From: a virus
Lineage: Duplodnaviria; Caudoviricetes
Virus record (IMG/VR): IMGVR_UViG_3300035661_000005
Strand: one strand, 5' to 3'
DNA length: 64,000 nucleotides
This document shows, piece by piece, positions 11,702-43,731 of this stretch (position 1 is the first letter of the stretch; the number at the start of each line of letters is the position of its first letter). Position numbers and translations under genes: made by a program. The notes under the pieces are model-generated. The model worked only from the letters and a program-made list of their open reading frames with translations. It ran no database searches and had not been told where the DNA came from.

Positions 11702-12772
11702 ATGATCGCCGCCAACGTCGTACGTCGTTTCCTCGCCTCAGGCATCCCGGACCTGCAGGGCATCCAAGACAACCTGGAAGCGCTCAAGGAGCTGGATGCG
11801 AACCTCACTGGCATCGAGGATGCGTTCGATAACCACTTCGATCTGACGGCGGCGAGCGCCCTGGAGCCTGTGGTCGACTCCCAGATCAAGAGCATCTTGA
11901 AGGCAAAGGAGGGCCTCAAGGCAGCCCAGGAGATGGTCAAGCAGACGGACATCATCCTGAACGCCTTCCCGGACGAGAAGGGGGCGCTCAAGACCAAGGC
12001 GGAAGCCGTCAAGATGGTCGAGCGCTTCACCAAGCACATGGAGGCGGCGCGGAAGATCGTCCGGACCATCTCGAAGAAGGCTCAGCCGGACGCCCTCAAG
12101 AAGGAAACGGCCATCGCGGAGAAGCTCATCTCGGCGCGGCTGGTGAACCCGGCGGCCCTCGACGTGATCCACTGGCAGACGCTGGAGCGAGGCTACATCC
12201 CCGGGGCCTACGGCCGTGACCAGAACGTCAAATGCGTGACCATGCTCTCGATCTTCCGGATCGAGGGCTCGCCCTGGAAGCGCAACGAGGGGGAGCCGAC
12301 CCTCCGGGAGTCCACGGACGCCCGCCTCCCTGGCGTTCACTGGACCATCGGCTACGAGCGGTCCGCCGGACCGTCGAGCGGCAAGGACTTCGCCGAGGCG
12401 GTCTTCAAGGCGCTCCGTGGGTGGCCTGGCCTCAAGGGTGAGGCCGAGGCTACCCAAGCGCGAGCGGGCACGGCGGCAGCCATCGCGAAGAAGCTCGACT
12501 CGGTCGCCCAAAGGCTCACTCGGCTCGACCACGACCGCGTCGAGATCTCGGACGACAAGACGGAGATCTCCACGTCGTACCGCTCGAACCTCCCGAAGGA
12601 GGGTGCGTACGATGTGGGTTCGTCCCGTTACGAGGAGATGGTCTCGGCCGAGATCAATAGGTGTCGGAGGACGTTGGATCCGGAGATCGCCAACTGGAAG
12701 GACGCCATCAAGAGCGTCGACGTCCACGACGGCGAGAAGGGCTGGATCTACATCACGGTCCGGCTGAAGTAG
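11702..12772 (+). CDS. Hypothetical protein with N-terminal NVVRRFL tag
   Basis: Strong codon bias; MIAANVVRRFLAS start. Confidence 0.85.
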   Translation: MIAANVVRRFLASGIPDLQGIQDNLEALKELDANLTGIEDAFDNHFDLTAASALEPVVDSQIKSILKAKEGLKAAQEMVKQTDIILNAFPDEKGALKTKAEAVKMVERFTKHMEAARKIVRTISKKAQPDALKKETAIAEKLISARLVNPAALDVIHWQTLERGYIPGAYGRDQNVKCVTMLSIFRIEGSPWKRNEGEPTLRESTDARLPGVHWTIGYERSAGPSSGKDFAEAVFKALRGWPGLKGEAEATQARAGTAAAIAKKLDSVAQRLTRLDHDRVEISDDKTEISTSYRSNLPKEGAYDVGSSRYEEMVSAEINRCRRTLDPEIANWKDAIKSVDVHDGEKGWIYITVRLK

Positions 12773-12774
12773 GG

Positions 12775-12802
12775 TTGATCGGGGGCGTGTAGGCCCTGTA
12801 GA
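12775..12802 (+). promoter_or_regulatory. TTGATC-N16-TGTAGA promoter, ATG 6 nt downstream
   Basis: Exact motif and spacing seen at many intergenic sites. Confidence 0.8.
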
Positions 12803-12808
12803 TGGATC

Positions 12809-13057
12809 ATGGCAAAGCTCACGAAGTTCTGGGTGGTCCGGGACCCGAGCCCCGTCTCCGAGATCAACGACATCCTCTTCGAATCCGATCCGGTCAAGTA
12901 CGCGGCCTACTGCGTCGGGGCCGGGTACCGCAATGTCAAGGACGAGCACACCGCGGTATACACGACCGAGGGCGAGGCCAAGAAGGACGCCCTGGCGCGG
13001 CTCCAGGCGGAGAAGAAGCCCGTCTCGCCGTACCGTGCCCCGCCTCCCGAGGGGTAA
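12809..13057 (+). CDS. Hypothetical protein
   Basis: Leaderless promoter upstream, codon bias. Confidence 0.75.
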   Translation: MAKLTKFWVVRDPSPVSEINDILFESDPVKYAAYCVGAGYRNVKDEHTAVYTTEGEAKKDALARLQAEKKPVSPYRAPPPEG

Positions 13058-13098
13058 CAAGTACGGACTAACCCCTCCCGGTGTAAAGAGAGGGTGCC

Positions 13099-15357
13099 AT
13101 GTCGAGGACGTCCACCCCACACTGCTCGTTCTGCAACAAGCCTCGGAACGAGGTGAAGGCCCTCATCGGCAACGACGAGGGTCCGTACATCTGCAACCGT
13201 TGCCTGGAGAACGGCTTCCGGGCGCTCTCGAACGCCCGGAAGGCCGCCGCGCAGACGTCCGCCAAGGACGAGCCCCTCCGCAAGCCGCGGGAGATCAAGG
13301 CGACGCTCGACCAGCACGTCATCGCCCAGGACCGGGCCAAGATGGACATCGCGGTCGCCGTCTACAACCACTACAAGCGGCGCGAGGCGCTCAAAGCGGG
13401 CACCGACCTCGGCGGGGTCGAGATCGCCAAATCGAATATCCTCTTGATGGGGCCCTCCGGCTGCCATCGGCGGGGCCAACGCATCCTCATGTACGACGGA
13501 TCGCTTAAAGCGGTCGAAGACGTGCGGGTGGGGGACTGTGTGATGGGGCCTGACAGCACCCCTCGCAACGTCCTGGAGCTGCACACCGGCACGGAAGAGA
13601 TGGTCGAGATCACCCCGACCAAGGGGGCCCCCTGGGTCGTCAACAAGGGGCACATCTTGACGGTCTTCGAGTACGACAAGGGTCTCGTGGACGTGTCCCT
13701 TCGGGAGTGGTTGGGCTGGTCGGAGAAGCGTCGCACGGAGTCGAAACTCGTGCGCGTGGGCGTGGACTTCCCCCTCTCCGGGAAGACTCTTCCTATCGAG
13801 CCCTACTTTCTCGGGGTTCTGCTCGGAGACGGGTCGTTGGCCCCCCATGTTCGAGTGACCTCGGCGGACTCTGAGATCGTGGCGGCTGTTCGTGCCTGCG
13901 CCCAGGACTTCGGGCTCCAGGTCAACTCTTACGCAAAGGCCACCACTTCGGCCCGTGACTACGTTCTGGCTGGAACGAAGGGCAAACGGAACCCGGTGGC
14001 CGAAGCCCTCGACTCGTTGGGCTTGTGGGGCAGCCGTAGCGAGAACAAGTTCGTCCCTCAGTCGTACCTCACGGCATCGCGTGAAGATCGCTTGGCTCTT
14101 CTCGCTGGTCTGATCGACACCGATGGCTGTTACCGGGACAAGCCCCCTTGCTTCGATTTCACCAGCAAGTCGGAGAAGCTCGCCCAAGATGTCGCCTTCC
14201 TGGCCCGCAGCCTGGGCTTTGCGGCGTATCCCCGGCCGTTCATGAAAGACGGTACGGCGTACTTCCAGATGAGTATCTCGGGGGACATCGACACGATTCC
14301 GGTCAAGGTGGAGCGGAAGAAGGCTCGGGCTCGTCACGAAAATGGGCGGGACGTTCTGCGGGTCGGATTCACGACTCGCGACCTCCCGGCTGAGGAGTAC
14401 TTCGGCTTCGTCCTCGACGGCGACCATCGGTACCTGCTTGACGACTTCACCGTGACCCACAACACCGGCAAGACGGAGATCGCCCGCACGATCTCGAGGA
14501 TGCTCCGGGTGCCTTTCTTCGTCGGTGACGCCTCCCGACTGACCCAGGCGGGCTACGTCGGCGACGACGTGGAGTCCCTCCTCCAGGGGCTCGTGCAGGA
14601 TGCCGACGGAGACGTGGAACGCGCCCAGTGGGGGATCGTCTTCATCGACGAATTCGACAAGCTGGCCCGCAAGTCGGGCCGCGGTGCCACGGGCTACCGT
14701 GACGTCTCTGGGGAGGGTGTGCAGCAGGCCCTCCTCAAGATCCTCGAAGGCTCGAAGATCGTCGTCCCCCGCGGCATGGGGCGGGTCGCGATGGGGTCCG
14801 GTAGCGGGGACGTGTTCGACACCTCCAACGTGCTCTTCATCTGCGCGGGTTCGTTCGCGGGGATCGAGGAGGTCATCGAGAAGCGTGTGAACAACCGGGC
14901 GAGCCTCGGGTTCGGCGCCGCGGAGCGGAAGAAGCTCACCAAGACGGACATCTACCTCCATGTGACCGAGGATGACGTCCTGGAATTCGGCCTCATCCCG
15001 GAGCTGATGGGGCGTCTGCCGGTCTTGACGACGGTCGTGGATCTGACCGAGGATGAGATGGTGCGCATCCTGACGGAGCCGCGGAACGCGATCATCAAGC
15101 AGTTTCAGGCGCTTTTCTCAATCGACGGTATCGACCTCCAGTTCGACGAGGCAGCGCTCCGGGCCATCGCCCGGGAGGCCAAGATGCGGCCCACGGGCGC
15201 CCGTGCCTTGCGCTCCATCGTGGAGAAGGTGCTCCAACCCTACTGCTTCGACGCCCCGAGCGACCCGACCATCAAAGCGCTCCGGGTGACGGAGGAGACG
15301 GTGAACGGGACGGGCAAGGCGATCGTCGTGACCCGTGAGGCTGCCGCCACGGGTTGA
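13099..15357 (+). CDS. clpX: ClpX ATP-dependent unfoldase precursor containing an intein
   Basis: C4 zinc-binding domain CSFC..CNRC, V(I)AQDRAK, GPSG/TGKT Walker A, LTQAGYVGDDV, FIDEFDK, RDVSGEGVQQALLK, GAR.LRSIVE. Confidence 0.97.
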   Translation: MSRTSTPHCSFCNKPRNEVKALIGNDEGPYICNRCLENGFRALSNARKAAAQTSAKDEPLRKPREIKATLDQHVIAQDRAKMDIAVAVYNHYKRREALKAGTDLGGVEIAKSNILLMGPSGCHRRGQRILMYDGSLKAVEDVRVGDCVMGPDSTPRNVLELHTGTEEMVEITPTKGAPWVVNKGHILTVFEYDKGLVDVSLREWLGWSEKRRTESKLVRVGVDFPLSGKTLPIEPYFLGVLLGDGSLAPHVRVTSADSEIVAAVRACAQDFGLQVNSYAKATTSARDYVLAGTKGKRNPVAEALDSLGLWGSRSENKFVPQSYLTASREDRLALLAGLIDTDGCYRDKPPCFDFTSKSEKLAQDVAFLARSLGFAAYPRPFMKDGTAYFQMSISGDIDTIPVKVERKKARARHENGRDVLRVGFTTRDLPAEEYFGFVLDGDHRYLLDDFTVTHNTGKTEIARTISRMLRVPFFVGDASRLTQAGYVGDDVESLLQGLVQDADGDVERAQWGIVFIDEFDKLARKSGRGATGYRDVSGEGVQQALLKILEGSKIVVPRGMGRVAMGSGSGDVFDTSNVLFICAGSFAGIEEVIEKRVNNRASLGFGAAERKKLTKTDIYLHVTEDDVLEFGLIPELMGRLPVLTTVVDLTEDEMVRILTEPRNAIIKQFQALFSIDGIDLQFDEAALRAIAREAKMRPTGARALRSIVEKVLQPYCFDAPSDPTIKALRVTEETVNGTGKAIVVTREAAATG
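13462..14463 (+). mobile_element. Intein (334 aa) with LAGLIDADG endonuclease in the ClpX P-loop
   Basis: GPSG|CHRRGQRILMYDG ... LGVLLGDG, LLAGLIDTDG ... YLLDDFTVTHN|TGKT. Confidence 0.95.
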
Positions 15358-15381
15358 TCGGCGCCGAGCTGCCCCTGTAGA
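15354..15381 (+). promoter_or_regulatory. TTGATC-N16-TGTAGA promoter, ATG 6 nt downstream
   Basis: Exact motif overlapping the clpX stop. Confidence 0.8.
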
Positions 15382-15387
15382 TAGGGC

Positions 15388-15672
15388 ATGACCGACAGCG
15401 TCTCCCTCCGCGTCGACTACATGGTCCCGGTCCTGACGAAGTCGAACAAGCCGAAGACCTACGAGCTTCGGCGGTTCGTCCTGGCGAATCGGATCGGCGT
15501 GGACGACTACGCGACGCTCAAGAGCGACGCGAACAAGCTCTGGGGTATCTTCCGGGCGGGCTTCGAGGCCAAGCTGGCGGAGCCGCTCAAGGGGTGGCCG
15601 ATCCACTTCCGCGTTCCGAGGATCGTAGCAAGGCCAAGGCGAACAAATGAGCAAGTCCCGCCGATATTTTGA
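15388..15672 (+). CDS. Hypothetical protein
   Basis: Leaderless promoter, codon bias. Confidence 0.7.
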   Translation: MTDSVSLRVDYMVPVLTKSNKPKTYELRRFVLANRIGVDDYATLKSDANKLWGIFRAGFEAKLAEPLKGWPIHFRVPRIVARPRRTNEQVPPIF

Positions 15673-16573
15673 GGTCACGGATGCCACGTCGCTGATCGGC
15701 GAAGTGCTGACGCTCGACTACTTCCATCCGGCGAAGAACGGCGCCATCCCGATCCCTGCGCACTTCGTCCGCGGTCCGGCGGAGACCCCGCTCGTCCTCG
15801 TGGTCGGTGAGAACGCGTCGGGCAAGTCGTTCATCCGTCGTCTGGTGACGGCAGTCTGCCGCGAGGTTTCCATCGAGTGTATCCACACCTCGATGGAGGG
15901 CCGCGGGGGCTCTTACGGTGGACTGCGGGGGTTCATCTACGGGGACGAGTCGTGGAAGTCGACGGGGGTGAACTCCGTGGGCACTGTTAGCATGGGGATC
16001 CGTACGTGCCTGGCCCGTGAGAAGTCGCACGTGGTCTTCTGGGACGAGCCTGATCTCGGCCTCTCGGAGAACGGGGCGGCCGGCGTGGGTCAGGCGATCG
16101 CGAGCTACGCGATGAGCCCGAACCCGAAGACGGTTGCGGCCGTCGTCGTGACGCACTCGAAGCCGCTCGTGCAGGAGATCCTGCATCAGTTGACCCCGCA
16201 CTACCTCCACCTCGGTGTGGGTCCTCTCAAGGCGCCCGCGACGCTCGCCGACTGGATCAAGATGCCGGTCGTCCCTCGATCGATCGAAGACATCGAGAAG
16301 GAGGGCCTTCGTCGCTTCAAGTTGATCCAGGCGATCCTGAACAAAAAAGAAAGACTCGTGACTCGCCATCGTGCAGCCAGCTCGTACGGGCACCTCATCC
16401 TGCATCTGGGGGCGGGGAGCTTCCGCATCTCGTGGACGGTGGATCGCTACTACGCGGGTAGCCGTCTTCGATATCCGCGCGGCTTCGAGCGCGTCACGGA
16501 TCTGGCGGGCGCGCGGCGGTTCGCGCGCAAGCACGGTCTCCCGGCCCCTGACTCCAAGGAACATGCGTTATGA
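15647..16573 (+). CDS. ABC/AAA-type P-loop ATPase, possibly fused to a small downstream ORF
   Basis: VVGENASGKS Walker A, VFWDEPDLGL Walker B/D-loop, VVTHS H-loop. Confidence 0.8.
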   Translation: MSKSRRYFEVTDATSLIGEVLTLDYFHPAKNGAIPIPAHFVRGPAETPLVLVVGENASGKSFIRRLVTAVCREVSIECIHTSMEGRGGSYGGLRGFIYGDESWKSTGVNSVGTVSMGIRTCLAREKSHVVFWDEPDLGLSENGAAGVGQAIASYAMSPNPKTVAAVVVTHSKPLVQEILHQLTPHYLHLGVGPLKAPATLADWIKMPVVPRSIEDIEKEGLRRFKLIQAILNKKERLVTRHRAASSYGHLILHLGAGSFRISWTVDRYYAGSRLRYPRGFERVTDLAGARRFARKHGLPAPDSKEHAL

Positions 16574-18768
16574 CCGACAAGCTGGCGCGCCCCAGGATGG
16601 CGGACGAGGTTCTCCGTGGGGACGAACCGGAGATCGGCCGTTGGTACTGGGTCCGTGACGATGCGGACGATGAGCCGTGTCTCGCGTGCGTTGTCACGAT
16701 GGGCTCGAACTTCATCGGCCTTGAGGGGGTTGGTTGCGCCACGCGTATCCACAACGACGACTTCTGGTCCCGTTGTACCTACGAGCCCAACGCCGAGCAG
16801 GTCATCCAGGGGAAGATTCGCGGCTACCAGGAGAACACGAAGCTCCTGGTGCGTAAGGTGCAGGAGATCACGTCGCGTCTCGCGATCACGCCGGGGCTCG
16901 CGCTCTCGGACGGTCAGCCCGAGAAGACGGAGACCGCACTTGTCGCGATGCGTGGGGAGATGCGTCCGGCGAGCGAGTACAAGGCGGCGCTCATCAAAGC
17001 GAAGAAAGAGGATCTCCCGCAGCTCTTCCAAGAGATCGAGAGCAACAACACGGCGATGGGCAGGTGGATGAAGGCCACGCTCATCCCGCTTCGGGCGCAG
17101 GCGGAGGGCCTGAAGTCCACCATTGGAGCGATCGAAGAGCGCATCTTCTCGGTCGAGCTGTACGCAGGTCTCGTTGAGACGGTCACGCAGTTCGCGGACG
17201 GCGCGCCCGCACCGACCCACGAGAAGATCCATCTCTTCCAGCGCCGGCACTACATGGACGAAGAGTGCCTCGTCAACTACGAGACGGGTGGGATGGAGTT
17301 CGCGAACCTCGGCGAGTTCGATCAGTGGCTCGCGCGCCCCGTGAACCGTGATCGCATCCTGCCGTACCCGCGCACCATCGCGGCTTTTCAGGTCCGGCGA
17401 AACCGGAAGGGACGTGACACGCTTAGCCTCAGTGACTTCATCAGTGTCATGGAGTTGGACAAGGCTGACAAGGCGACCTTCCTCTACATCCGCAACGGCG
17501 AGCAGCTCTTCCGCCTGGGCACGGAGATCGACTTCGGGGAGAGACTCTTCCTCGATCTCGATCAGCAGCTCGTCGACCGCGGGACGATCTGGGTCAAGAT
17601 GTCCTGCGGGAAAGTGAAGCGGATGATCTCCGATCACGAGTACCAGGCGATGCTCGAAGAAGAGCGTCGTATTGACGCGGAGTGGGAAAAAGCACCCGAG
17701 ACAGAGAGGTGGCGGCACTCGCACTTTCACGAGACGAGCGAGTACCAGCCCTTCGATCGCTCGAACGTCTACTACGACGAGATCGTGAAGCACCTCGCGG
17801 ATGAGGCCGCGCGCCACAACCGGCTCGTGCTCGTTCTCCAGGGGCTCCTCGATCGATCCCCGGTCATGCACCCGCACCCTGCGTGGTCGCTGTGGACGCC
17901 GGAAGGCTTCACGGCGGGCCTGACGCTCGTCTACGACGATTCTCGTGCTCTGGTCGCGGGGGAGCGCCCGGACTTCGAGGCCTATCGTGCGCGACTGAAT
18001 GCCTCGTTGAAGGCGGGGTCCATCACGGTCGGGCAGGACGACGCCTGGGCCCGTGCGGAAGCCGACAAGGAGTACGAGCGCGAGAGCGCGCGGGGACACG
18101 GGAGTTACCGCCCGACGCACCACCGGCCCTACGGCAACCCCGGCCCCGGGATGCTGGCTCGTGTGGTGCGGTACGCGCCGCGTGCGAAGACCTGCACCTA
18201 CGAATGGGAGCGGCAGCGTCGGACCTACGACGAGGACTACTACAAGGGTCGCCGCACGGTCCCCGTGTCGTTCACGACGGAGACCTCGAACATCTTGAAC
18301 GTCGACGCCTACCGGCCCGGCGACTTCAAGATGTTCTTCAACGACCCGCGCACGCGTGCGGACTACCTGGAGTGGGCGCCGCTGCTCTTGGAGGCCGAGG
18401 AGTACCACGCGGGCAACCGCAAGGTGCAGGAGCCCCCGGTCCCGACCGTCCGCAAGAAGTCCGAAGAGGGTTCCTGGGAGTACGAGAAGCGCAAGTGTCG
18501 TCGAGCCTTGCGAGGGAAGGCGGTGCGCCTTACCCGCGCCGTCACGACGCGGGGCGGGACCAAGTACGAGGTCGGCTCCCTCTGGCGCGTGACGGGCAGT
18601 CACGGCGATCTTTGTACGATCACGGGCATCACGCCGGACGGCAAGACTGAGATGAACGACGCAGGTTGCGTCGCGCGTCTTGTTTGCAACGTCGACTCCT
18701 ACTCGTTCGACGTGGACGAGACGATCCCGAAGGCACCGAAGGCACCGAAGCACGACGACGAGTCGTAG
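16570..18768 (+). CDS. Large hypothetical protein with coiled-coil N-terminal half
   Basis: 732-aa ORF, ATGA coupling, codon bias. Confidence 0.85.
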   Translation: MTDKLARPRMADEVLRGDEPEIGRWYWVRDDADDEPCLACVVTMGSNFIGLEGVGCATRIHNDDFWSRCTYEPNAEQVIQGKIRGYQENTKLLVRKVQEITSRLAITPGLALSDGQPEKTETALVAMRGEMRPASEYKAALIKAKKEDLPQLFQEIESNNTAMGRWMKATLIPLRAQAEGLKSTIGAIEERIFSVELYAGLVETVTQFADGAPAPTHEKIHLFQRRHYMDEECLVNYETGGMEFANLGEFDQWLARPVNRDRILPYPRTIAAFQVRRNRKGRDTLSLSDFISVMELDKADKATFLYIRNGEQLFRLGTEIDFGERLFLDLDQQLVDRGTIWVKMSCGKVKRMISDHEYQAMLEEERRIDAEWEKAPETERWRHSHFHETSEYQPFDRSNVYYDEIVKHLADEAARHNRLVLVLQGLLDRSPVMHPHPAWSLWTPEGFTAGLTLVYDDSRALVAGERPDFEAYRARLNASLKAGSITVGQDDAWARAEADKEYERESARGHGSYRPTHHRPYGNPGPGMLARVVRYAPRAKTCTYEWERQRRTYDEDYYKGRRTVPVSFTTETSNILNVDAYRPGDFKMFFNDPRTRADYLEWAPLLLEAEEYHAGNRKVQEPPVPTVRKKSEEGSWEYEKRKCRRALRGKAVRLTRAVTTRGGTKYEVGSLWRVTGSHGDLCTITGITPDGKTEMNDAGCVARLVCNVDSYSFDVDETIPKAPKAPKHDDES

Positions 18769-18786
18769 CTGGTGTACGTGAGCGGT

Positions 18787-18993
18787 ATGACGACTCGTCC
18801 TACCCCCACCCTCGCGGAACTGCGCGCGCTCTGTAAAGTCGTCTCGACCTGGGTTGACGAGAACCACGTCTACGACGCGGAGACTCTCTACCGGCGTACC
18901 CTGGAGCGAGGGAAACACCGGGTGCTGGCGAGAGAGCTGGGATCAAGTTTTACTGCCGATCTTGTGACAGGATTTCGCACGCGGACGTGGTAG
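18787..18993 (+). CDS. Hypothetical protein
   Basis: GGTGTACG element upstream; weaker codon bias at the 3' end. Confidence 0.45.
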   Translation: MTTRPTPTLAELRALCKVVSTWVDENHVYDAETLYRRTLERGKHRVLARELGSSFTADLVTGFRTRTW

Positions 18994-18994
18994 G

Positions 18995-19197
18995 AGGGAT
19001 CAACTTGCTCGGACGTTCCGAGGACAAACAAGTCGGTCCTGATGATCACCCGTCTGTAGTGAAAGCCATCTTGAGAGAGCGATACCGGATTCGCCGGGAC
19101 AGTTCCTCAAGGGGTAATTTCGCGCTCGTACCGTCGAGCCGGAGGCTTACTACCGAGGGATCTCTTTCGAGAGATATCGGCACAGCTTCAAATCAGG
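18995..19197 (+). ncRNA. Candidate multi-stem structured RNA
   Basis: At least seven nested helices, e.g. CTCGGA/TCCGAG, GTAGT-AAGCC/GGCTT-ACTAC, CTTGAG/CTCAAG, TCTCT-TTCG-AGAGA; strand uncertain. Confidence 0.55.
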
Positions 19198-19262
19198 TGG
19201 CAGCTCATGCATAAGTTTGAGTAACTTCCCGAGTACGGTCCCTGCACTACGACCCTACCCCC

Positions 19263-19373
19263 ATGACGATCGATCTCTCCGGGGACGTGCTCGACTTCCG
19301 ACTCTACGACCGGGACAACGGAGTGGGGGCTGGGGAGAGCGCCGTGCTCGACGCCCTCACGCGCCCATCCTAA
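19263..19373 (+). CDS. 36-aa small ORF (MTIDLSGDVLDFRLYDRDNG...)
   Basis: Codon bias; sits between the two structured RNA candidates. Confidence 0.4.
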   Translation: MTIDLSGDVLDFRLYDRDNGVGAGESAVLDALTRPS

Positions 19374-19513
19374 CGACTTCTCTTATCGGAGGCCCTGGAT
19401 AAGACCACCGCCTCGAAAGTCGTTCAGCGGGCGTTGGGGATCGGTAAGCTGGTTCGGCCCAACTTCCAGCAGATCGCCAGGTTCAGCGTGGGCCTCCCGA
19501 CAGAAACGCTGAG
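19374..19513 (+). ncRNA. Candidate double-pseudoknot RNA
   Basis: Stems CGACTT/AAGTCG, TCTTATC/GATAAGA, GCTGG/CCAGC, TCAGCGT/ACGCTGA; loop GGAGGCCC complementary to loop GGGCCTCC; GTTGGG complementary to loop CCCAAC. Confidence 0.65.
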
Positions 19514-19557
19514 TACGGTTTCCGGCAGGTCTTCCTCTATTCCATCTAGGCACGATC

Positions 19558-20352
19558 ATGGACCCCAAGGCACCCAAGGTTATGGCCCGGTTCGCAGCGG
19601 CGGTCCTGCCGTTCAAGCCGAAGCCGAAAGTCCCAACCACGACGATTCGCGGGGACAAGTACGTCCTCTCGACCTTCGGTGGGATGCTCGGTGACCGGGA
19701 GGATGACGAGGCCAGCATGTTCGGCGGGCGTCTCATCGGACCGCCCCCGGGTGCGAACAAGTGGTGCTACCTCTGGGTCTACGATACCGAGCGCCAGGTC
19801 GTGGCCATGTGGCGGGCTTCGGACGGGGACGAGAAGTACCACGGGTCCCCCCGTTCCGCGACGAGCTACATCGTCATGCTGGACAAGCGGGGGCAGCTCA
19901 ACCGCGTCACCAACGCCGAATTCCGGGTCATCGAGTCCGAGATGCGGCAGCGGGAGGACGCGGCCATCAAGAGCATGCAGCAGACACTCGAAGAGGCCAA
20001 GAGCGAGGCCGAGCGTTCGCTCGACGACTACATTCGGACCTTCTTCGAGAAGTTCGTCCTGCCGAAGCTCCTTCGGGGCCTCTCGGACGTGAAGTCTGGG
20101 GCGACGCCGATCGGGTTCCGGCCGTTCGGACCGGCGGCGGAGGGTGATGCGGCTTGGCTCCTTCGGCAGAAGTCCAGTTACGTCCTCGGGGAGGTGTTCA
20201 AGCGCGAGATGGACCCAGAGAAGGTCGTCATGTGGCTCGAAGGACAGGGCTTCAACGTCGGCATCGTCCACAACCAGGCGATCGATTGGGCGATCGGGGA
20301 CGTGCGGGACGAGGCTGCGGAGAGGTACTTGCCCAAGGCGCCGTACGTTTGA
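19558..20352 (+). CDS. Hypothetical protein with N-terminal KVMARF tag
   Basis: Codon bias; MDPKAPKVMARFAAA. Confidence 0.8.
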   Translation: MDPKAPKVMARFAAAVLPFKPKPKVPTTTIRGDKYVLSTFGGMLGDREDDEASMFGGRLIGPPPGANKWCYLWVYDTERQVVAMWRASDGDEKYHGSPRSATSYIVMLDKRGQLNRVTNAEFRVIESEMRQREDAAIKSMQQTLEEAKSEAERSLDDYIRTFFEKFVLPKLLRGLSDVKSGATPIGFRPFGPAAEGDAAWLLRQKSSYVLGEVFKREMDPEKVVMWLEGQGFNVGIVHNQAIDWAIGDVRDEAAERYLPKAPYV

Positions 20353-20376
20353 TCGGGCACGCTCCTGGGCTGTAGA
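20349..20376 (+). promoter_or_regulatory. TTGATC-N16-TGTAGA promoter
   Basis: Exact motif; leadered transcript with AAGGAG SD. Confidence 0.8.
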
Positions 20377-20416
20377 GGGGCTGTCAGATCCTCCACCCCG
20401 CGGGCGTCTAAGGAGC

Positions 20417-20995
20417 ATGCAGAACATCCGCCTCGCCCACGCCAACATCGTCTCCGCGTTCGACCACGTTACCGTGGGCTCGAAGGTGATCGACCACGAC
20501 GGCTTCCTCCTGGCCGCGTGCGAGGCGATCCGAGCGTTCGACTTCGTCAGCCAGAAGGTCCCCGGGCAGGGGTTCATCATGTGCCCGGCCGCGGTCCCCT
20601 TCGTCTTGGCCGGCGCCGGCAAGAGGACCAAGGACCCGAACGACTTCGTTCTCCGTGTGTACCGGGGGGAGGTCCAGCCCTTCCTCCGCCGGGAGAAGGC
20701 GGCGCCGGTCGAGGGCTGCGCCCTGGTGATCTACACCAAGGAGGCGTACCTCGCGGCCCCAGATGTCGCTAGGGAGCCCGAGGAGGTCGCCCGCATCCAG
20801 GCGGAGGACCCGACCCACGTGGTCGTGGCGGTCCTGGCGTTCGCCGGCCCGAAGCCCCCGCTGACGCCCTACCGGCTCGTCCACAACCTCGCCGGGGGCA
20901 ACAAGGAGGCCCTCGTGTGGACGGCGGACGAGATCCGCGAGAAGGCGGTCGAGTCCCTCGCGTACGACCGCGAGTGGGCGACCGTGGCCGACTGA
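20417..20995 (+). CDS. Hypothetical protein, possibly DUF3228-like
   Basis: AAGGAG SD; LVIYTKEAY..., VVVAVLA..., P.TPYRLVHNLAGG pattern recalled from DUF3228 (uncertain). Confidence 0.75.
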   Translation: MQNIRLAHANIVSAFDHVTVGSKVIDHDGFLLAACEAIRAFDFVSQKVPGQGFIMCPAAVPFVLAGAGKRTKDPNDFVLRVYRGEVQPFLRREKAAPVEGCALVIYTKEAYLAAPDVAREPEEVARIQAEDPTHVVVAVLAFAGPKPPLTPYRLVHNLAGGNKEALVWTADEIREKAVESLAYDREWATVAD

Positions 20996-21041
20996 CGGGC
21001 GGTTCTACTTGTGAGGGAGGCTTCCGGTAGGAGCATCCCTC

Positions 21042-21251
21042 ATGCCGTCTCCGGTCGATCGTTACCACGACGAGGTCAAGAAGAACAACCCGGACTACTC
21101 CGAAGAGCAAGCCTGGGCGACCGCGTGGAGCATCTACTGCAAGCACAAGAACCCGGGTTCGGACTCGTGCAAGAAGCCGACGTCCGAGTATCTGAAGGGC
21201 AAGGAGGCTTCCCTTGCCCTTCGCGTCGTCGCCCGGTTCACCAGCCGCTAG
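21042..21251 (+). CDS. Small protein with C-terminal RVVARF tag
   Basis: KNNPDYSEEQAWATAWSIYC; ends KEASLALRVVARFTSR. Confidence 0.8.
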   Translation: MPSPVDRYHDEVKKNNPDYSEEQAWATAWSIYCKHKNPGSDSCKKPTSEYLKGKEASLALRVVARFTSR

Positions 21252-21340
21252 CGGTCCAGCAGCCACTCGGGGACCGACCCACCCTGCGCCCCGTACTCGG
21301 CGCGCTTCTGCGCCCCGTAGGCGGCTGCCGCGACCCTCTT

Positions 21341-21370
21341 CGGCTTTCGCCTCGGCGGCTTTCGCCTCGG
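21341..21370. repeat. Perfect tandem duplication, 15 bp x2
   Basis: CGGCTTTCGCCTCGG twice. Confidence 0.95.
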
Positions 21371-21394
21371 CGGTCCGCCAGTCGGGAGCGGGCG

Positions 21395-21422
21395 TTGATC
21401 AACCGGCCCTCGTCATTGTAGG
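21395..21422 (+). promoter_or_regulatory. TTGATC-N16-TGTAGG promoter
   Basis: Exact spacing; -35 lies inside the palindrome GTTGATCAAC. Confidence 0.65.
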
Positions 21423-21455
21423 TGTCTACGTGGTTGATCCCGAATGGTGTAAGAG

Positions 21456-22292
21456 ATGAGTGTGCGATCCGGCCGCCTTCTCCGTATGCCGTACTCTCTT
21501 TCCCGGTGGACAGACGTCCCTGCGGCGAAGTGGGAATGGTTCAAGGATCGGCTGGCCGAGGGCCACATGCTCGCCTTCAACCCCCAGGACGCGATCCCGT
21601 CCCGGTGGAGCTTGAAGCCCGCCGAGACGCTCGGACTGGTCTTCTGGACCAAGGATCCCTCGAACCTGATCGCGGACGCGGCGATCCTCCAAGACTTCCT
21701 CGTAAAGATCCACGTCACCGTGACCGGCTGGGGGGAGGTCGAGAAGGGTGCGCCGAGCCTTGCGCAAGGAGCACAATTGCTCTGCGAGGCGGCGCGGACG
21801 TTCGGAGCCGGGAACGTCACGTGGCGCTTTTCCCCTGTGCCCCTCGTCCCGGACGTGGTCGATCGGTTCCAGCGGATCGCTGCGATGGCCGAGGACGCGG
21901 GTGTGCAGAGCGTCTACCTGAGCTTCTTGCAGACGAACGACCGCATGGCAGAGACGCGAACCGCCGAGGAGCGTTTCGTCATCCTCCAGGAGATCGCCAA
22001 GAGCGCGGGGGGCCGGGGGATCAATGTGCGCCTGTGCAACGAGGACGGCCTGCTCCGTGGACGGGTGGACCTGTCCCCGAACCTGACCACGGGAATCTGC
22101 GCACCCCCCGAGGATTTTGCGTTATCGGGTTCGGCCAAGGCACCCGCGGAAGGCTGCGGGTGCGTCTTGATGGTGGACCCCTTCACCGTGAACGAGACTT
22201 GTTCTATCGGATGCCAATACTGCTACGCTGCGGACGAGACGCTTTCACCTCGGAAGCGGAACACGACTCGCAGCCTGCCCGTAGTACCATGA
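21456..22292 (+). CDS. DUF1848 family protein (radical-SAM/SP-lyase-like)
   Basis: SLSRWTDVPA, VFWTKDP, VTWRFSP, C-terminal GCGC...TC.IGCQYCYA. Confidence 0.85.
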   Translation: MSVRSGRLLRMPYSLSRWTDVPAAKWEWFKDRLAEGHMLAFNPQDAIPSRWSLKPAETLGLVFWTKDPSNLIADAAILQDFLVKIHVTVTGWGEVEKGAPSLAQGAQLLCEAARTFGAGNVTWRFSPVPLVPDVVDRFQRIAAMAEDAGVQSVYLSFLQTNDRMAETRTAEERFVILQEIAKSAGGRGINVRLCNEDGLLRGRVDLSPNLTTGICAPPEDFALSGSAKAPAEGCGCVLMVDPFTVNETCSIGCQYCYAADETLSPRKRNTTRSLPVVP

Positions 22293-35486: not shown

Positions 35487-35489
35487 TCC

Positions 35490-35984
35490 GTGATCGACCG
35501 TTTTCGCGTTGTCGCCCGTTTCCTAGAGGCTCGGCCCACGGGTCCGGCCAAGGGCTGGGAACGTCGCAAGGAGAACGACAGCCTGGCGGAAAACAGCATC
35601 CCGCCGGAGCATCTTCTCTTCTGGCGGAAGATCAAGAACCACTTCAAGGGCACGCCAGATCAGCGAGCCGAGCAGTTCATGGAGTACCTCGACCTCCATC
35701 CCGGTGAGAGCGACGAGTGGCTCTTCGAACATGCCGATAAGGAGTTGGGGAAGGCGACCCGGAAGCACGAGCGCGAGCAGATGGTGAACCACAAGCTGGA
35801 GCAGAACTGCGACAAGGCCCAGACCAAGTACGAGGACGCCTGGTACAAGGAGCAGGAGCGTCAGACGCAGGAGAAGGCCAAGCTCAAGGCGCTCCAGGAG
35901 CGGGCCAATTCGACCTGCCGGGCGTGCCCAACCTGCGAACAGGTTGGCGACAACAAGCCCTACGACGACGTGGTTCCGTTCTGA
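35490..35984 (+). CDS. Hypothetical protein with N-terminal RVVARFL tag and DDVVPF tail
   Basis: Codon bias; CRACPTC near the C-terminus. Confidence 0.8.
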   Translation: MIDRFRVVARFLEARPTGPAKGWERRKENDSLAENSIPPEHLLFWRKIKNHFKGTPDQRAEQFMEYLDLHPGESDEWLFEHADKELGKATRKHEREQMVNHKLEQNCDKAQTKYEDAWYKEQERQTQEKAKLKALQERANSTCRACPTCEQVGDNKPYDDVVPF

Positions 35985-36277: not shown

Positions 36278-37126
36278 GTGATGGCTTCGGAGAGAAGCAT
36301 GTCCCAGATGACCGAACGGGTGGCGGCCCGCTACAAGTCGAAGAAGCGGATCAAGACGCAGGACGGCGACACGATGACGGTCTACGAGTACTCGGACCGT
36401 CAGATCGCGAACCGCCACAAGCAGAAGGCGGAACGCTACGAGAAGCTCAAGGGCAAAATCAGCGACCTCCAGGCAAAGGTCAAGAAAGACCTGAAGTCCG
36501 ACGACCCGGAGAAGAAGCTGACGGCCCTCGCCGTGGCCCTGATAGACCACACGTACGAGCGCGTCGGCAACGACGAGTCGGCCCAGGACGGGCACTTCGG
36601 CGTGACAGGATGGCAGCGCAAACACCTGAGCTTCGGCCGGGACGTTTCCCTGAATTACGTTGGGAAGTCGGGCGTCAAGCACAAGAAGAAGGTTACGGAC
36701 GCGGCCATCAAAAAGGCCCTGCGGGACGCCTACGAGGCCCACGAGGAGGAGGATGCCTGCCTCTTCGAGTGGGAGGGTGGCAAGGTCTCCGCGGAGCATG
36801 TGAACACCTACCTGAAGGACTTCGGTGTGACGGCGAAGGACCTCCGTGGCTTCCACGCGAATCGCGAGATGGTCGACCGACTCAAGGCGGTCCGGAAGGG
36901 CAAGCTCCCCGAGGACAAGAAGGAACGGGAGAAGCAGCTCAAGGACGAATTCAAGACCGCCTTGGAGGAGACGGCTGAGATCGTCGGTCACGAGCCGGCC
37001 ACGCTGAGGTCGCAGTACCTCGTGCCGAACCTCGAAGACTCCTATGTGAAGGACGGGACGATCATCTCCTCTTACACGAAGAGCGCGTCCGAGCGGATCG
37101 TCGAGCGTTACCTGGCGGTCCGATGA
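36278..37126 (+). CDS. DNA topoisomerase IB, catalytic-domain-only form
   Basis: Pentad R (YERVGN), K (VGKSG), R (TAKDLRG), H (IVGHE), Y (RSQYL). Confidence 0.88.
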   Translation: MMASERSMSQMTERVAARYKSKKRIKTQDGDTMTVYEYSDRQIANRHKQKAERYEKLKGKISDLQAKVKKDLKSDDPEKKLTALAVALIDHTYERVGNDESAQDGHFGVTGWQRKHLSFGRDVSLNYVGKSGVKHKKKVTDAAIKKALRDAYEAHEEEDACLFEWEGGKVSAEHVNTYLKDFGVTAKDLRGFHANREMVDRLKAVRKGKLPEDKKEREKQLKDEFKTALEETAEIVGHEPATLRSQYLVPNLEDSYVKDGTIISSYTKSASERIVERYLAVR

Positions 37127-41722: not shown

Positions 41723-41759
41723 CCAGGTGCGGCTCCAGGAGGCCCCCAAGGCTCCCTCG

Positions 41760-41849: not shown

Positions 41850-43174
41850 TGGCCTCCCTGGCAGAGCGTGTGGCGACCCGGTTCCTTCAGGCGGACGCCA
41901 TCGGGGATCCGAAGGAGCTGGTTCAGCCCTTTGCGAGCCTGGTCGACAGGCTTGCTGTGCATCGAACCGAGGCGGAGACGGCGCTCCCCTTCCTGCGACG
42001 GCTGCCCGACAACCTCCTGAGCAGTCTGAGCTTCTCGGATCGGCTCAGGGTCCGAGAAAGCGTCCCGGGGCTCGCGGAAGCCCTGAAGGTGGCCCATGAG
42101 GCATTCGGGGCCCTGACTTACCTGATCCCGAAGTTCGCGTACCCGGGCAGCCAACTCTTCCTCTCGATCATTCAGACGTACGCGCTGCCGGCGTCTCTGC
42201 GGAAGAAGATCGAGATGGCCTCCCGGACCTACATGAAGACGACCCGGCTGCGTTGGCCGAACGCCGAAGGTCTCTCGGGTGAGATCGCCCGCATCGAGGC
42301 GTACCTGAAGTACCTCGCCCTCTACGAGTCGCACCTCAACTACGCGAAGGAAGCCATCGCAAAGGGGAAGGGGCACACGGAAGAGGGCGCGGAGGCGACG
42401 AAGGTCCGCGTCGGCAGCTTCACGCTGGTCAACACGGGCGGCTTCTCGGCGGAGGTCATGGGCAACGTCGCGGAGGCCATGAAGAAGGCCGAGGCGCTGC
42501 TCAAGTCCAGCGGGTTCGGCATCGTCTGCTACGGCGACGTGCAGGTCACCAACACGATCTCGAAGGGGAACGTGCTGGCTTTCTACCTGCCCAGCAAGGA
42601 CGAACTGTTCATCCGGGCCAACTTGAAGCCGACGTCGGACAGCATCCACATCATCCTGCACGAGCTGGGGCACCGTTTCGAGGCGAAGAAGTTGTCCAGC
42701 CGAGCGGGTGACCTCCGACGCCTCTACAGCCTCATCAATGGGCAGGAGTACACCCGCAAGAAGGAGATGCGAGCCAAGAAGCCCCCGATCGGTGACAAGC
42801 TGGTCGACAAAGGCAAGACCTACGAGGTGGCGGGCTACGACGTCGGCCGCAACGGGCTCATGGTCGTGCTGAAGCAGGAGGGCGACCCTCGGATCCAAGC
42901 CAAGGTCTCGCTGGAGGGCTACCTCAGCCGGAAGGGCGAGGGGGGCGCCCGCAACGTCGACGAGACGCCGGACTTCAAGGGCTTCGTCACGGAGTACGCG
43001 AAGAAGACCCCCTCCGAGAACTTCGCCGAGATGTTCGCCTACTACTGCATGGGGCGCCTGCCGGTGCTCCAGAGCGTGGCGTTCGAGGAGCTGTGTTTCG
43101 GTTCGTCCGACCCGCCGGGTGAGAGCATCTTCACGGCCCGGCGGGTCGTGGCCCGCTGGATCATTCAGATGTAG
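41846..43174 (+). CDS. Zinc metallopeptidase, lethal factor-like (paralog 3, divergent)
   Basis: IILHELGHRF, YAKKTPSENFAEMF; tags ERVATRFL and RRVVARW; true start 41846. Confidence 0.8.
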   Translation: MMASLAERVATRFLQADAIGDPKELVQPFASLVDRLAVHRTEAETALPFLRRLPDNLLSSLSFSDRLRVRESVPGLAEALKVAHEAFGALTYLIPKFAYPGSQLFLSIIQTYALPASLRKKIEMASRTYMKTTRLRWPNAEGLSGEIARIEAYLKYLALYESHLNYAKEAIAKGKGHTEEGAEATKVRVGSFTLVNTGGFSAEVMGNVAEAMKKAEALLKSSGFGIVCYGDVQVTNTISKGNVLAFYLPSKDELFIRANLKPTSDSIHIILHELGHRFEAKKLSSRAGDLRRLYSLINGQEYTRKKEMRAKKPPIGDKLVDKGKTYEVAGYDVGRNGLMVVLKQEGDPRIQAKVSLEGYLSRKGEGGARNVDETPDFKGFVTEYAKKTPSENFAEMFAYYCMGRLPVLQSVAFEELCFGSSDPPGESIFTARRVVARWIIQM

Positions 43175-43443
43175 ATCGGCTCGCAGCCGCAGTGGTCGCA
43201 CTCCTCCCAGATTTGGGTGGTGCGGGTGGCGGTGCGACAGCACCGGGAGCAGCCCTGGCGGGCCGGCTTCGGCACGATGGAACAGATCCAGACGCCGTTG
43301 CCGGACCAGATGATCGTCTTGATCGTCTCGACCTTGGTATCACCGGACTTCTTGATCACGGTGACGACTTGGCCGGGCCGGACCTCTTCAGTCGATCGAA
43401 CGCCCCAGGAACCGTCACGCAACTTGGTGTAGGTGTTGGTCAT
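43165..43443 (-). CDS. Small phage protein with C-terminal Zn finger
   Basis: TYTKLRDGSWGVR..., CSRC...CDHCG; leaderless promoter. Confidence 0.8.
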   Translation of the reverse strand: MTNTYTKLRDGSWGVRSTEEVRPGQVVTVIKKSGDTKVETIKTIIWSGNGVWICSIVPKPARQGCSRCCRTATRTTQIWEECDHCGCEPIYI

Positions 43444-43449
43444 GGTGCT

Positions 43450-43477
43450 TCTACAGGGAAGGGAGGGTTTCGATCAA
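43450..43477 (-). promoter_or_regulatory. TTGATC-N16-TGTAGA promoter, ATG 6 nt downstream
   Basis: Exact motif. Confidence 0.8.
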
Positions 43478-43517
43478 CCGCCCACCGTGAGGGCGGGCGG
43501 TTTGACTCGGGGTGGGC

Positions 43518-43731
43518 TCAGCCCGTCATCGCGAGGGCCATCGTCAGGGCCCGCTGGTTGAGGCGAGCCGAGTCGCCGAACCACATCGAGTCGAGGCGGT
43601 TCTCGTCGCGGCCCCGCTCGTATTGGAGGTACTCGTTGACCGCGTTGTAGGCGGCCCAGAGGGTGCCCTTGACGCCGGGGGTCGAGCATCTTGCGGGCGT
43701 GCGCTTCCCTGGCGGCGACGCGGTCGGCCAT
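43518..43731 (-). pseudogene. Chimeric remnant: tag-bearing start joined out of frame to a DUF932 C-terminus
   Basis: MADRVAAREAHARKMLD, then in another frame PGVKGTLWAAYNAVNEYL...RLDSMWFGDSARLNQRAL, homologous to the end of 44578-45567. Confidence 0.7.

What the first reader, a model, noticed from the sequence alone, without database searches (positions are those of the whole stretch)
11702..43731. A shared terminal peptide tag (R-V-[VA]-x-R-[FY]-L) on 12 unrelated ORFs: candidate virion-packaging address system
Seen: about 16 instances, always near an N- or C-terminus. N-terminal: NVVRRFL (11702), KVMARFA (19558), ERVARQF (31094), DRISRTF (32605), RVVARFL (35490), ERVAARY (topoisomerase IB), SRVLSRL (37123), ERVAAR (41760), ERVATRFL (41846), DRVAAR (43731). 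C-terminal: RVVARFT (21251), RVVARYL (29439), KVVARFL (31091), RVVTRFL (32610), RIVERYL (37126), RVVARW (43174). Four proteins carry it at both ends. The carriers share no other domain (proteases, a topoisomerase, unknowns). None of the metabolic genes or genes with the leaderless promoter carries it. Inference: an amphipathic basic helix that docks onto a shared partner such as the scaffold or prohead core, sorting cargo into the head for injection with the DNA, analogous to the capsid-targeting sequence of T4 internal proteins. It would be a portable, engineerable packaging tag.
Basis: partly seen in the sequence, partly recalled or inferred. Interest (0 to 1): 0.92.

Follow-up and report, generated by a model that had tools for sequence, protein, structure and literature searches.

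The report
Shared terminal address peptide, huge phages
Seven unrelated protein families of an uncultured jumbo phage, and many more in its distant relatives, begin or end with the same short peptide (…R-V-V/A-x-R-F/Y-L…), which behaves like a portable address label for enzymes aimed at the host; what reads the label is unknown.

Summary
The strict pattern [RK][VI][VA]xR[FYW] hits 10 times in six frames. Nine hits are in frame in real genes, all within 15 residues of a protein end (0.29 expected). Codons vary synonymously, so selection acts on the peptide.

Corrections: 9 ORFs in 7 independent families carry it, not 12 unrelated ORFs. Four carriers are zincin paralogs. Two N-terminal copies are decayed and three claimed instances are doubtful.

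The tag is widespread in uncultured huge phages (38-65% GC): 13 and 20 strict hits in two relatives against about 2 expected. It is gained and lost among close topoisomerase IB orthologs, and sits at module junctions in giant polyvalent proteins. Carriers are effector-type enzymes.

Tagged genes lack the early leaderless promoter and score high for a structural-gene promoter motif.

A rival I rank slightly higher is docking to the zinc-finger N-domain of the phage's own ClpX. The tag resembles the SspB tail (ALRVVK), tagged genes of at least 10 families flank clpX in nine genomes, and the two co-occur. An AlphaFold ClpX-tag chain showed no docking.

The scan noted this stretch twice, and other shared tags in other phages, but not this motif on other DNA.

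The parts
11714..11734 (+). N-terminal tag NVVRRFL of protein A (gene 11702-12772, 356 aa, unknown function), two genes upstream of clpX
   Evidence: its ortholog in G006 sits at the same place next to clpX
19576..19596 (+). Weaker N-terminal tag KVMARFA of protein B (gene 19558-20352, unknown function)
   Evidence: late-type motif 17 nt upstream
21222..21242 (+). C-terminal tag RVVARFT of small protein C (gene 21042-21251, 69 aa)
   Evidence: its homolog in G031 also carries RVVARY
29451..29471 (-). C-terminal tag RVVARYL of zincin D (gene 29439-31094, HExxH with a downstream Glu, weak anthrax-lethal-factor-like Pfam match)
   Evidence: AF2 places it at the end of the last helix
31059..31076 (-). 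Decayed N-terminal tag RVARQF of zincin D
   Evidence: family consensus is LAxRVARRFxAELLTKxWL
31136..31156 (-). C-terminal tag KVVARFL of zincin E (gene 31091-32605), 14 residues before the stop
32576..32593 (-). Decayed N-terminal tag RISRTF of zincin E
32622..32642 (-). C-terminal tag RVVTRFL of protein F (gene 32610-33884, unknown function; first gene of the F-E-D operon)
35505..35525 (+). N-terminal tag RVVARFL of protein G (gene 35490-35984, unknown function)
36317..36337 (+). N-terminal tag RVAARYK of topoisomerase IB (gene 36278-37126). The AA[KR]YKxKK part is intrinsic to this topoisomerase family.
37094..37114 (+). C-terminal tag RIVERYL of topoisomerase IB; present in only about half of close orthologs
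41867..41887 (+). N-terminal tag RVATRFL of zincin J (gene 41846-43174, Peptidase_Mx1-like)
43142..43162 (+). C-terminal tag RVVARWI of zincin J
13099..15357 (+). Phage ClpX, the candidate reader: C4 zinc-finger N-domain, GYVG pore loop, LGF (IGF-like) ClpP-docking loop, no RKH loop, LAGLIDADG intein in the Walker A motif, early leaderless promoter
10814..22292 (+). Conserved block: CN-hydrolase, tagged gene, ClpX, tagged genes, DUF1848. It recurs in nine related genomes.

Best explanation
The motif is a portable short linear docking peptide. Its consensus is [L/I]-[A/S]-x-[R/K]-V-[A/V]-x-R-[F/Y/W]-[L], about three helical turns on a flexible end. It labels host-directed 'effector' modules of a large clade of uncultured huge phages: zincin proteases, topoisomerase IB, nucleotidyltransferase, 2H phosphoesterase, a J-domain protein and many unknowns. 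It hands them to one common phage-encoded reader.

Shown:
- Peptide-level conservation.
- Restriction to termini, or to module junctions in fused polyvalent proteins.
- Portability (gain, loss and tandem copies on orthologs).
- Absence from early and metabolic genes.

Inferred: I commit, at low confidence, to the zinc-finger N-domain of the phage's own ClpX. The tag would act like the SspB 'XB' tail (…ALRVVK) or the N-terminal tether of UmuD. It would leash tagged proteins by either end, multivalently when tandem or double-ended, to the three N-domain dimers of the ClpX hexamer. ClpX would then unfold or remodel them, or, with host ClpP docked through the LGF loop, degrade them in a timed way. 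What ClpX then does with them is not known. The confidence given (0.35) is for the ClpX reader specifically; that this is a shared docking or address peptide with one common reader I hold at about 0.8.
For: Tag is real and portable: window; relatives: 97 distinct N-terminal and 28 C-terminal instances.

Similarity to XB: E. coli SspB ends RGGRPALRVVK (read from NC_000913). That peptide binds the ClpX N-domain, and the same site serves the direct substrates UmuD, MuA, lambda O and FtsZ (PMC3983244, PMC9963277, PMC7226468). N-terminal tags have L at -1 in 34% of cases and [LI] at -3 in 69%, so many read A-L-R-V-A.

The phage ClpX has the zinc finger, GYVG and LGF loops but no RKH loop, so it is not built for ssrA-type recognition.

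Neighbourhood: in the window and in G001, G004, G005, G006, G008, G011, G013, G015 and G031, clpX is flanked by tagged genes, which belong to at least 10 unrelated families. In G001 the two genes directly downstream are tagged, against 13 of 392 genome-wide.

Co-occurrence: among complete genomes, 7 have both and 2 have neither (Fisher p=0.028). Over 44 contigs, 21 of 25 zinc-finger-positive against 5 of 19 negative contigs carry RVAAR[FY].

ClpX signals are known at either terminus (PMC12723719). Extra stand-alone zinc-finger proteins exist in G001, G004 and G013.
Against: - The shared core with XB is only 3-5 residues. The invariant R-[FYW]-L half has no counterpart in XB.
- The tag is predicted helical, whereas XB binds as a strand (my recollection of PDB 2DS8).
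- AlphaFold on a natural read-through ClpX-spacer-tag chain left the tag unstructured at pLDDT 32-45.
- Four tag-bearing contigs have no ClpX, though all four are incomplete and lack the whole block.
- Co-occurrence is confounded by clade and genome size. The clpX neighbourhood is part of a larger conserved region of 30-40 kb.
- ClpX has an early promoter while tagged genes look late.
- There is no clear reason why enzymes such as topoisomerase IB should be ClpX clients.
- Only 1 of 5 relatives encodes a ClpP-family protease.
Confidence: 0.35

Rival explanations
1. Capsid-targeting address. The tag docks late-made effector enzymes onto the scaffold or core of the prohead, so that they are packaged and injected with the DNA at the next infection, as with T4 internal proteins and Alt, or the P1 Dar proteins.
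For: - Carriers are the very modules that relatives fuse into giant polyvalent proteins (L011: nucleotidyltransferase + two zincins + topoisomerase IB, with tags at the junctions). That class is predicted to be packaged and injected (PMC5512222).
- Effector-type carriers occur elsewhere too: a 2H phosphoesterase (Acb1-like), a J-domain protein, zincins.
- None of the tagged genes has the early leaderless promoter.
- A weight matrix built from 14 sites reported upstream of this genome's structural genes ranks four tagged transcription units among the top six of 85 genes (p=0.013).
- Late synthesis of host-directed enzymes makes most sense if they are packaged.
- Other lineages put different tails on the same enzymes, as expected for lineage-specific addresses.
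Against: - No head protein is linked to the tag. The head module lies about 110 kb away (earlier notes).
- No protease cleavage site was recognised beside the tag.
- The tag works at N or C ends and in tandem, unlike the T4 sequence.
- Gene A (11702) starts 3 nt after a metabolic gene and has no promoter of its own.
- The promoter training set comes from unverified notes, and the 10-mer alone is not enriched.
- It does not explain why tagged genes crowd around clpX.
- There are no cultured relatives and no proteomics.
Confidence: 0.28
2. Junction or processing signal of the zincin proteases. The tag marks the boundaries at which the expanded zincin family recognises, and perhaps cuts, polyvalent proteins. 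In genomes where the modules are separate genes, the tag survives as the zincin's docking site on its clients.
For: - Tags lie at module junctions inside fused ORFs (L011, P0011, P0014, P0018, G033).
- Zincins are the commonest carriers and are tagged at both ends.
- Processing of polyvalent proteins by embedded zincin-like peptidases is the published hypothesis (PMC5512222).
Against: - In separate genes a cut would remove only 4-15 residues, yet the tag is strongly conserved there (97 N-terminal instances).
- Tandem copies and facultative C-terminal copies fit docking better than cleavage.
- The AF2 model does not place either tag in the zincin's own cleft as far as its output shows: both are terminal helices.
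- Genomes were sampled through zincin and topoisomerase queries, so co-occurrence with zincins is built in.
Confidence: 0.12
3. Self-association. The identical amphipathic helices on different modules pair with each other, re-assembling a 'split polyvalent protein' non-covalently, much as docking domains do in modular synthases.
For: - The same modules are fused in some lineages and split but tagged in others.
- Adjacent genes F-E-D carry a C-tag followed by an N-tag across each gene boundary.
- N and C tags share one consensus.
Against: - Fused proteins keep the tags although they would not need them.
- Short three-turn helices with two Arg are poor self-associating units.
- There is no heptad continuation.
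- Many carriers have a single tag.
Confidence: 0.07
4. Lipid- or membrane-targeting amphipathic helix (as in MinD, FtsA or MreB), sending the proteins to the cell membrane or to a phage-made vesicle.
For: A terminal, basic and amphipathic helix at either end is the classic anatomy of such sequences (my own knowledge). Tandem copies would add avidity.
Against: Sequence identity is far too specific for lipid binding: R 91%, V 98%, A 87%, R 100% and aromatic 100% at fixed positions across 38-65% GC genomes. Lipid-binding helices conserve the hydrophobic moment, not residues.
Confidence: 0.04

Closest known systems
SspB XB tail / ClpX-binding region (E. coli SspB ...RGGRPALRVVK; also RssB, UmuD)
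   Same: A short peptide at the extreme end of a flexible segment. It shares the core L-R-V-V/A. It can be N-terminal (UmuD) or C-terminal (SspB). Multivalency matters. A cognate ClpX with the C4 zinc finger is encoded in the genome and sits among the tagged genes.
   Different: The phage tag has an additional invariant R-[F/Y/W]-L. It is predicted helical. It is carried by 10-20 different proteins per genome, many of them enzymes rather than adaptors. Binding is untested, and the AlphaFold read-through chain showed no docking.
T4 capsid-targeting sequence of internal proteins (IPI-III), and the packaging signals of P1 Dar proteins
   Same: A short shared terminal peptide on otherwise unrelated host-directed proteins, which are apparently made with the structural genes. 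The same logic of one address for many cargos.
   Different: The T4 sequence is N-terminal only and is removed by the prohead protease. Here the tag is at either end, often at both or in tandem, with no recognisable cleavage site and no evidence of virion location.
Polyvalent proteins of phages and conjugative elements (Iyer et al. 2017, PMC5512222)
   Same: The same module repertoire (zincin-like metallopeptidase with nucleic-acid enzymes). Relatives encode true polyvalent ORFs of 1,000-3,100 aa that contain these modules.
   Different: In this genome the modules are separate genes. The recurrent boundary peptide is not part of the published description as far as I could find.
ClpX degron classes (N-motifs 1-3, C-motifs 1-2; Flynn 2003, PMC12723719)
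   Same: Terminal position at either end, with a hydrophobic-basic-hydrophobic character.
   Different: It matches none of the five consensus classes exactly. C-terminal copies end 3-5 residues (once 14) before the carboxyl end and do not end in LAA or RRKKAI.

Membership tests
SspB-type ClpX N-domain tether (XB) | Short peptide at the extreme terminus, on a flexible or disordered segment | tested here: met
   All 9 strict window instances lie within 15 aa of an end. They are flanked by S/A-rich linkers. AF2 confidence is low at the N-tag.
SspB-type ClpX N-domain tether (XB) | Sequence of the L-R-V-V-K type | tested here: inconclusive
   R-V-[VA] is invariant and L at -1 occurs in 34% of N-tags, compared with ALRVVK. 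The rest of the tag (x-R-[FYW]-L) has no XB counterpart.
SspB-type ClpX N-domain tether (XB) | A cognate ClpX with the C4 zinc-binding N-domain is available | tested here: met
   zf-C4_ClpX at residues 8-39 of the window ClpX. It matches the PDB 2DS5-2DS8 zinc-finger chains. It is present in 25 of 44 related contigs.
SspB-type ClpX N-domain tether (XB) | Physical binding of the peptide to the N-domain | tested here: inconclusive
   The only proxy available was AF2 on a natural read-through ClpX-spacer-tag chain, which left the tag as coil at pLDDT 32-45.
T4-type capsid-targeting sequence | N-terminal position only | tested here: not met
   Six strong C-terminal copies in the window and 28 distinct C-terminal instances overall.
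T4-type capsid-targeting sequence | Removed by the prohead protease at a consensus site next to the tag | tested here: inconclusive
   No conserved residue pattern suggesting a cleavage site flanks the tag. The protease specificity of this phage is unknown.
T4-type capsid-targeting sequence | Carriers are present in the virion | not testable with these tools
   No cultured relative in 50,697 phage records and no proteomics.
T4-type capsid-targeting sequence | Carriers are expressed late, with the structural genes | tested here: inconclusive
   No early promoter on tagged genes. The late-motif matrix favours tagged units (p=0.013), but the training sites come from unverified notes. No RNA data exist.
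Polyvalent proteins | Several unrelated enzymatic domains, including a zincin-like peptidase, in one polypeptide | tested here: not met
   In the window the modules are separate genes. The feature is met in relatives: L011 at 3,098 aa and others up to 2,813 aa.
Tat signal peptide | N-terminal S/T-R-R-x-F-L-K followed by a hydrophobic h-region | tested here: not met
   Half of the copies are C-terminal, and no hydrophobic stretch follows the N-terminal ones.
Membrane-targeting amphipathic helix | Amphipathicity conserved while sequence is free to vary | tested here: not met
   Residue identity is conserved at five positions across 125 terminal instances.

The most novel reading that the evidence does not exclude
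Both readings are true at once. The phage ClpX uses its zinc-finger domain to capture tagged effector enzymes, and it unfolds or holds them for loading into the prohead. That would be an unfoldase-coupled protein-packaging pathway, by analogy with the ATPase-chaperone step of type III secretion. It would explain late-class, injected-type cargo crowding around clpX. It would also solve how large enzymes become able to pass through the tail channel.
Probability: 0.07. Interest if true: 0.95.

Novelty: new variant of a known kind. Interest (0 to 1): 0.7.

Why it matters
Huge phages carry hundreds of genes of unknown role. A conserved address label singles out, from sequence alone, a set of 10-20 proteins per genome that share one fate, most of them host-directed enzymes.

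If it is the phage ClpX, it would be the first client code described for a virus-encoded ClpX, and a new tethering motif for that machine. Either way the finding links split effector genes to the giant polyvalent proteins of related phages.

Tried and rejected
- **DNA-level repeat or regulatory element at gene ends:** rejected. Codons differ synonymously, and the motif is in frame in 9 of 10 six-frame hits.
- **Chance:** rejected by shuffles and by reversed-pattern controls, which gave 0 hits in 44 contigs.
- **Tat signal, membrane-targeting helix, PP1-type RVxF docking motif:** considered and rejected on position, flanks or spacing (see the membership tests; RVxF from my own knowledge).
- **'TTCCTCTTAT' box as a 10-mer:** not enriched, 27 matches against 20 expected. 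Only the independently trained matrix gave a signal.
- **Inverted DNA repeat to explain the twin 'RVAAR-x-AHARKML' short ORFs flanking gene J:** not found.
- **Close relatives among 50,697 phage records:** none. One uncultured record only.
- **Whole genome of the window:** not held, so head genes could not be inspected.
- **RNA runs:** none.
- **Primary papers on N-domain peptide specificity (PMC263758, PMC1693814, PMC2865724):** not held.
- **Function of protein A via the ESM Atlas:** no usable hit.
- **AF2 read-through ClpX-tag chain:** no docking.
- **Phyletic test:** suggestive but confounded by clade, size and completeness. The four tag-positive, ClpX-negative contigs are all incomplete and lack the whole block, so they cannot be decided.


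Full report
**What the window is.** It is 64 kb at 64% GC. It comes from an uncultured phage contig of about 200 kb whose DNA occurs in microbial-mat and sediment metagenomes. It encodes:
- nucleotide-metabolism genes: thymidylate synthase, DHFR, a 5'-nucleotidase;
- a CN-hydrolase, DUF1848, Dam methylase, RNase HII, DUF932;
- a GH25 lysin with a peptidoglycan-binding domain, and a transglycosylase;
- an AAA+ protein and a ClpX, each split by a LAGLIDADG intein.

Earlier notes place the head and tail genes 70-120 kb upstream. The whole genome is not held, and no close relative exists among sequenced phages.

**Checking the observation.** I called genes by codon-position GC and scanned all six frames.
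- The strict pattern [RK][VI][VA].R[FYW] occurs 10 times. Nine hits are in frame in real genes, and all nine lie within 15 residues of a protein end.
- Shuffling each protein gives 0.29 expected hits. With 19% of residues lying near an end, nine out of nine terminal has p = 3e-7.
- Codons differ between copies at synonymous sites, so the constraint is on the peptide, not on the DNA.
- A slightly looser pattern adds NVVRRFL at 11714 and KVMARFA at 19576.
- The N-termini of the two zincin paralogs carry decayed copies (RVARQF, RISRTF). These are exactly where their homologs have RVARRF, followed by AELLTKxWL.
- Three claimed instances do not hold up. One is a 15-codon mini-ORF at 37135. The other two are short ORFs at 41766 and 43725 in frames with non-coding GC statistics.
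- The carriers are not all unrelated. D, E and the fragment 37167-37415 are paralogs, and J is a remote zincin relative. A, B, C, F, G and the topoisomerase share only the tag.
- The result is 9 carrier ORFs in 7 families. Two proteins are strictly tagged at both ends, and two more have a decayed N-copy.

**The tag beyond this genome.**
- Of 88 homologs of zincin D, most begin with …L-A-x-R-V-A-R-R-F… and many end with …R-V-V-x-R-F-L….
- In 33 related loci from huge-phage contigs (80-530 kb, GC 44-64%), strict hits again sit a few residues after a start codon or 4-13 residues before a stop, on varied ORFs.
- Two near-complete relatives give 13 hits (G001, 363 kb) and 20 hits (G004, 400 kb), against about 2 expected. 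The hits are spread over the genome and mostly N-terminal.
- The back-translated variant RVAAR[FY] occurs 58 times in 44 contigs, while the reversed control pattern occurs 0 times.
- From 125 distinct terminal instances, the N-terminal consensus is M-D-x-[L/I]-[A/S/T]-[L]-R-V-A-A-R-[Y/F]. The C-terminal consensus is [S/A]-[A/S]-x-R-V-[A/V]-x-R-[Y/F]-L plus 3-5 residues.

**Portability.**
- In the topoisomerase IB family (60-80% identity, 567 homologs) the copy before KSKKKVKT is nearly universal. Part of it, AA[KR]YKxKK, is intrinsic: it persists in degraded form when the domain lies inside giant ORFs.
- Some orthologs add a second copy in tandem.
- The C-terminal copy is present in only about half of close orthologs.
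- Other lineages end the same enzyme, and the zincins too, with quite different recurrent tails: …SWEKFLNGD…LLKTVVTxWGxMPGRK, …TAGYTYDRR, or Cys-rich tails.
- In L011 a 3,098-aa ORF fuses a PolyA-polymerase-like nucleotidyltransferase, two zincins and the topoisomerase. Five tag copies lie at the junctions. Similar fusions reach 2,813 aa.
- So the tag marks module boundaries whether the modules are split or fused.
- Other carriers in relatives include a 2H phosphoesterase (LigT/Acb1-like), a J-domain protein, a ferritin-like protein and a second topoisomerase-like protein. No structural protein was seen among the carriers.

**Structure.** AlphaFold2 with 60 homologs models zincin D well (mean pLDDT 86). 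The N-tag is a short helix (residues 4-10, pLDDT about 53) separated from the body by a coil. The C-tag is the far end of the last helix (pLDDT about 75). Hydrophobic residues fall at i, i+1, i+4, i+5 with Arg alongside, so each tag is an exposed amphipathic helix.

**Expression class.**
- Many untagged genes, including clpX, have TTGATC-N17-GGTGTAAGA ending 7-10 nt before the start codon. This looks like a sigma-70-type promoter giving leaderless or near-leaderless mRNA. The box is enriched, 18 matches against 5.8 expected.
- None of the tagged genes has this promoter.
- Earlier notes list 14 sites of a pyrimidine-rich motif (core AATCCTCTTRT) upstream of structural genes outside my window. 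A weight matrix built from those sites ranks the units headed by 21042, 36278, 35190 (leading to 35490) and 19558 among the six best of 85 genes (Mann-Whitney p = 0.013).
- The plain 10-mer is not enriched.
- This makes tagged genes probably 'late class', but it rests on unverified notes, and no RNA data exist.

**Who reads the tag? The ClpX lead.**
- The E. coli genome confirms that SspB ends in RGGRPALRVVK. That XB peptide binds the ClpX N-domain, a site also used by direct substrates (PMC3983244, PMC9963277, PMC7226468).
- The phage ClpX is genuine. It has the C4 zinc finger, the GYVG loop and an LGF loop in place of IGF. It lacks the RKH loop.
- Across nine related genomes the order is CN-hydrolase, then often a tagged gene, then ClpX, then one to three tagged genes, then DUF1848, as in the window at 10.8-22.3 kb. 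The flanking tagged genes belong to at least ten unrelated families.
- Among complete genomes, seven have both ClpX and tags and two have neither (p = 0.028). Over 44 contigs the split is 21 of 25 against 5 of 19.
- Caveats: the zinc-finger-negative contigs lack ClpX and the whole block. The four that still have tags are incomplete, so they cannot be decided. The association is also confounded by clade and genome size.
- Only one of five relatives encodes a ClpP-family protease.
- As a direct proxy I used a natural arrangement in G013, where clpX and the next tagged gene share a reading frame. I read the two intervening stops as glycine and folded the chain with 57 ClpX homologs. The zinc finger is well modelled, but the tag stays coil at pLDDT 32-45. 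That means no predicted docking, which I treat as an inconclusive negative.

**Weighing.** That this is a portable docking or address peptide with one common reader I hold at about 0.8.
- ClpX N-domain, 0.35: literal motif similarity, neighbourhood, co-occurrence, and use at either end or in tandem.
- Zincin docking or processing, 0.12.
- Self-association, 0.07.
- Lipid binding, 0.04.
- Something else, the remainder.

The two leading readings are not mutually exclusive.

**Novelty.** The motif strings do not occur in the searchable literature in any phage context, and the polyvalent-protein paper does not describe a boundary peptide. The scan's notebook holds this same stretch read twice, and analogous but different shared tags in other huge phages, but not this motif on other DNA.

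Noticed in passing
window 489-3443 and 13099-15357: Both the AAA+ ATPase and the ClpX are interrupted by LAGLIDADG inteins. The ClpX intein sits in the Walker A motif (GPSG|C…HN|TGKT). Some relatives have intein-free ClpX of about 420-430 aa, and others have ORFs of 777-795 aa.
   Followed up: partly
window, e.g. 472-480, 13070-13098, 21446-21454, 28290-28298, 59669-59677: Promoter class TTGATC-N17-GGTGTAAGA ends 7-10 nt before start codons, which implies leaderless or near-leaderless mRNAs. GGTGTAAGA with up to 1 mismatch occurs 18 times against 5.8 expected. It is on clpX and many small genes, and never on tagged genes.
   Followed up: partly
L081-L091, L101, L115, L117, L121 (topoisomerase C-termini); window 55381-63008 per earlier notes: The second, acidic tag of this genome (T-x-W-[DE]-R-L-x-x-D) also ends topoisomerase IB orthologs in other lineages (…GSWEKFLNGD…LLKTVVTxWGxMPGRK…). 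The same cargo families therefore swap between address types. In G008 a 71-aa protein ending …SAWERLGEEDL lies directly downstream of clpX.
   Followed up: partly
G001 67359-67715; G004 261646-262176; G013 about 167204: Small proteins (119-186 aa) end in a ClpX-type C4 zinc finger but have no AAA+ module. They could be extra readers, or competitors, for whatever binds that domain.
   Followed up: no
window 37135-37182 (+) and 37167-37415 (-): A 15-codon mini-ORF that is only an N-tag (MSLASRVLSRLVDPS) abuts an 82-aa ORF equal to the last 45 residues of the zincin family (…EAFAEAF…DQIESFRTVL). These are likely remnants of a decayed tagged zincin gene.
   Followed up: partly
window about 41757-41846 (+) and 43731-43680 (-): Two short ORFs on opposite strands flank zincin J and share M-x-[ED]-RVAAR-x-AHARKML. 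Their frames look non-coding and no DNA inverted repeat was detected. Unexplained.
   Followed up: partly
L132 (polyvalent ORF upstream of the topoisomerase domain): The element before the topoisomerase domain is expanded into a perfect repeat, AAKYAAAKYAAAKYAAAKYKEKKK, as if by slippage.
   Followed up: no
G001 65737-66432 and 66451-67362; G004 262303-262836: More shared tails: two adjacent G001 proteins both end …SLFDLAMSGELDD (clamp-binding-like SLFDL), and a G004 protein ends …DSDEIPF (SSB-like tail). These phages use several short terminal motifs.
   Followed up: no
window 34438-34539: Tandem direct repeat of 51 nt (2 copies, 71% identical) in the gene-poor stretch 33.9-35.2 kb, between the divergent tagged operons.
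   Followed up: no
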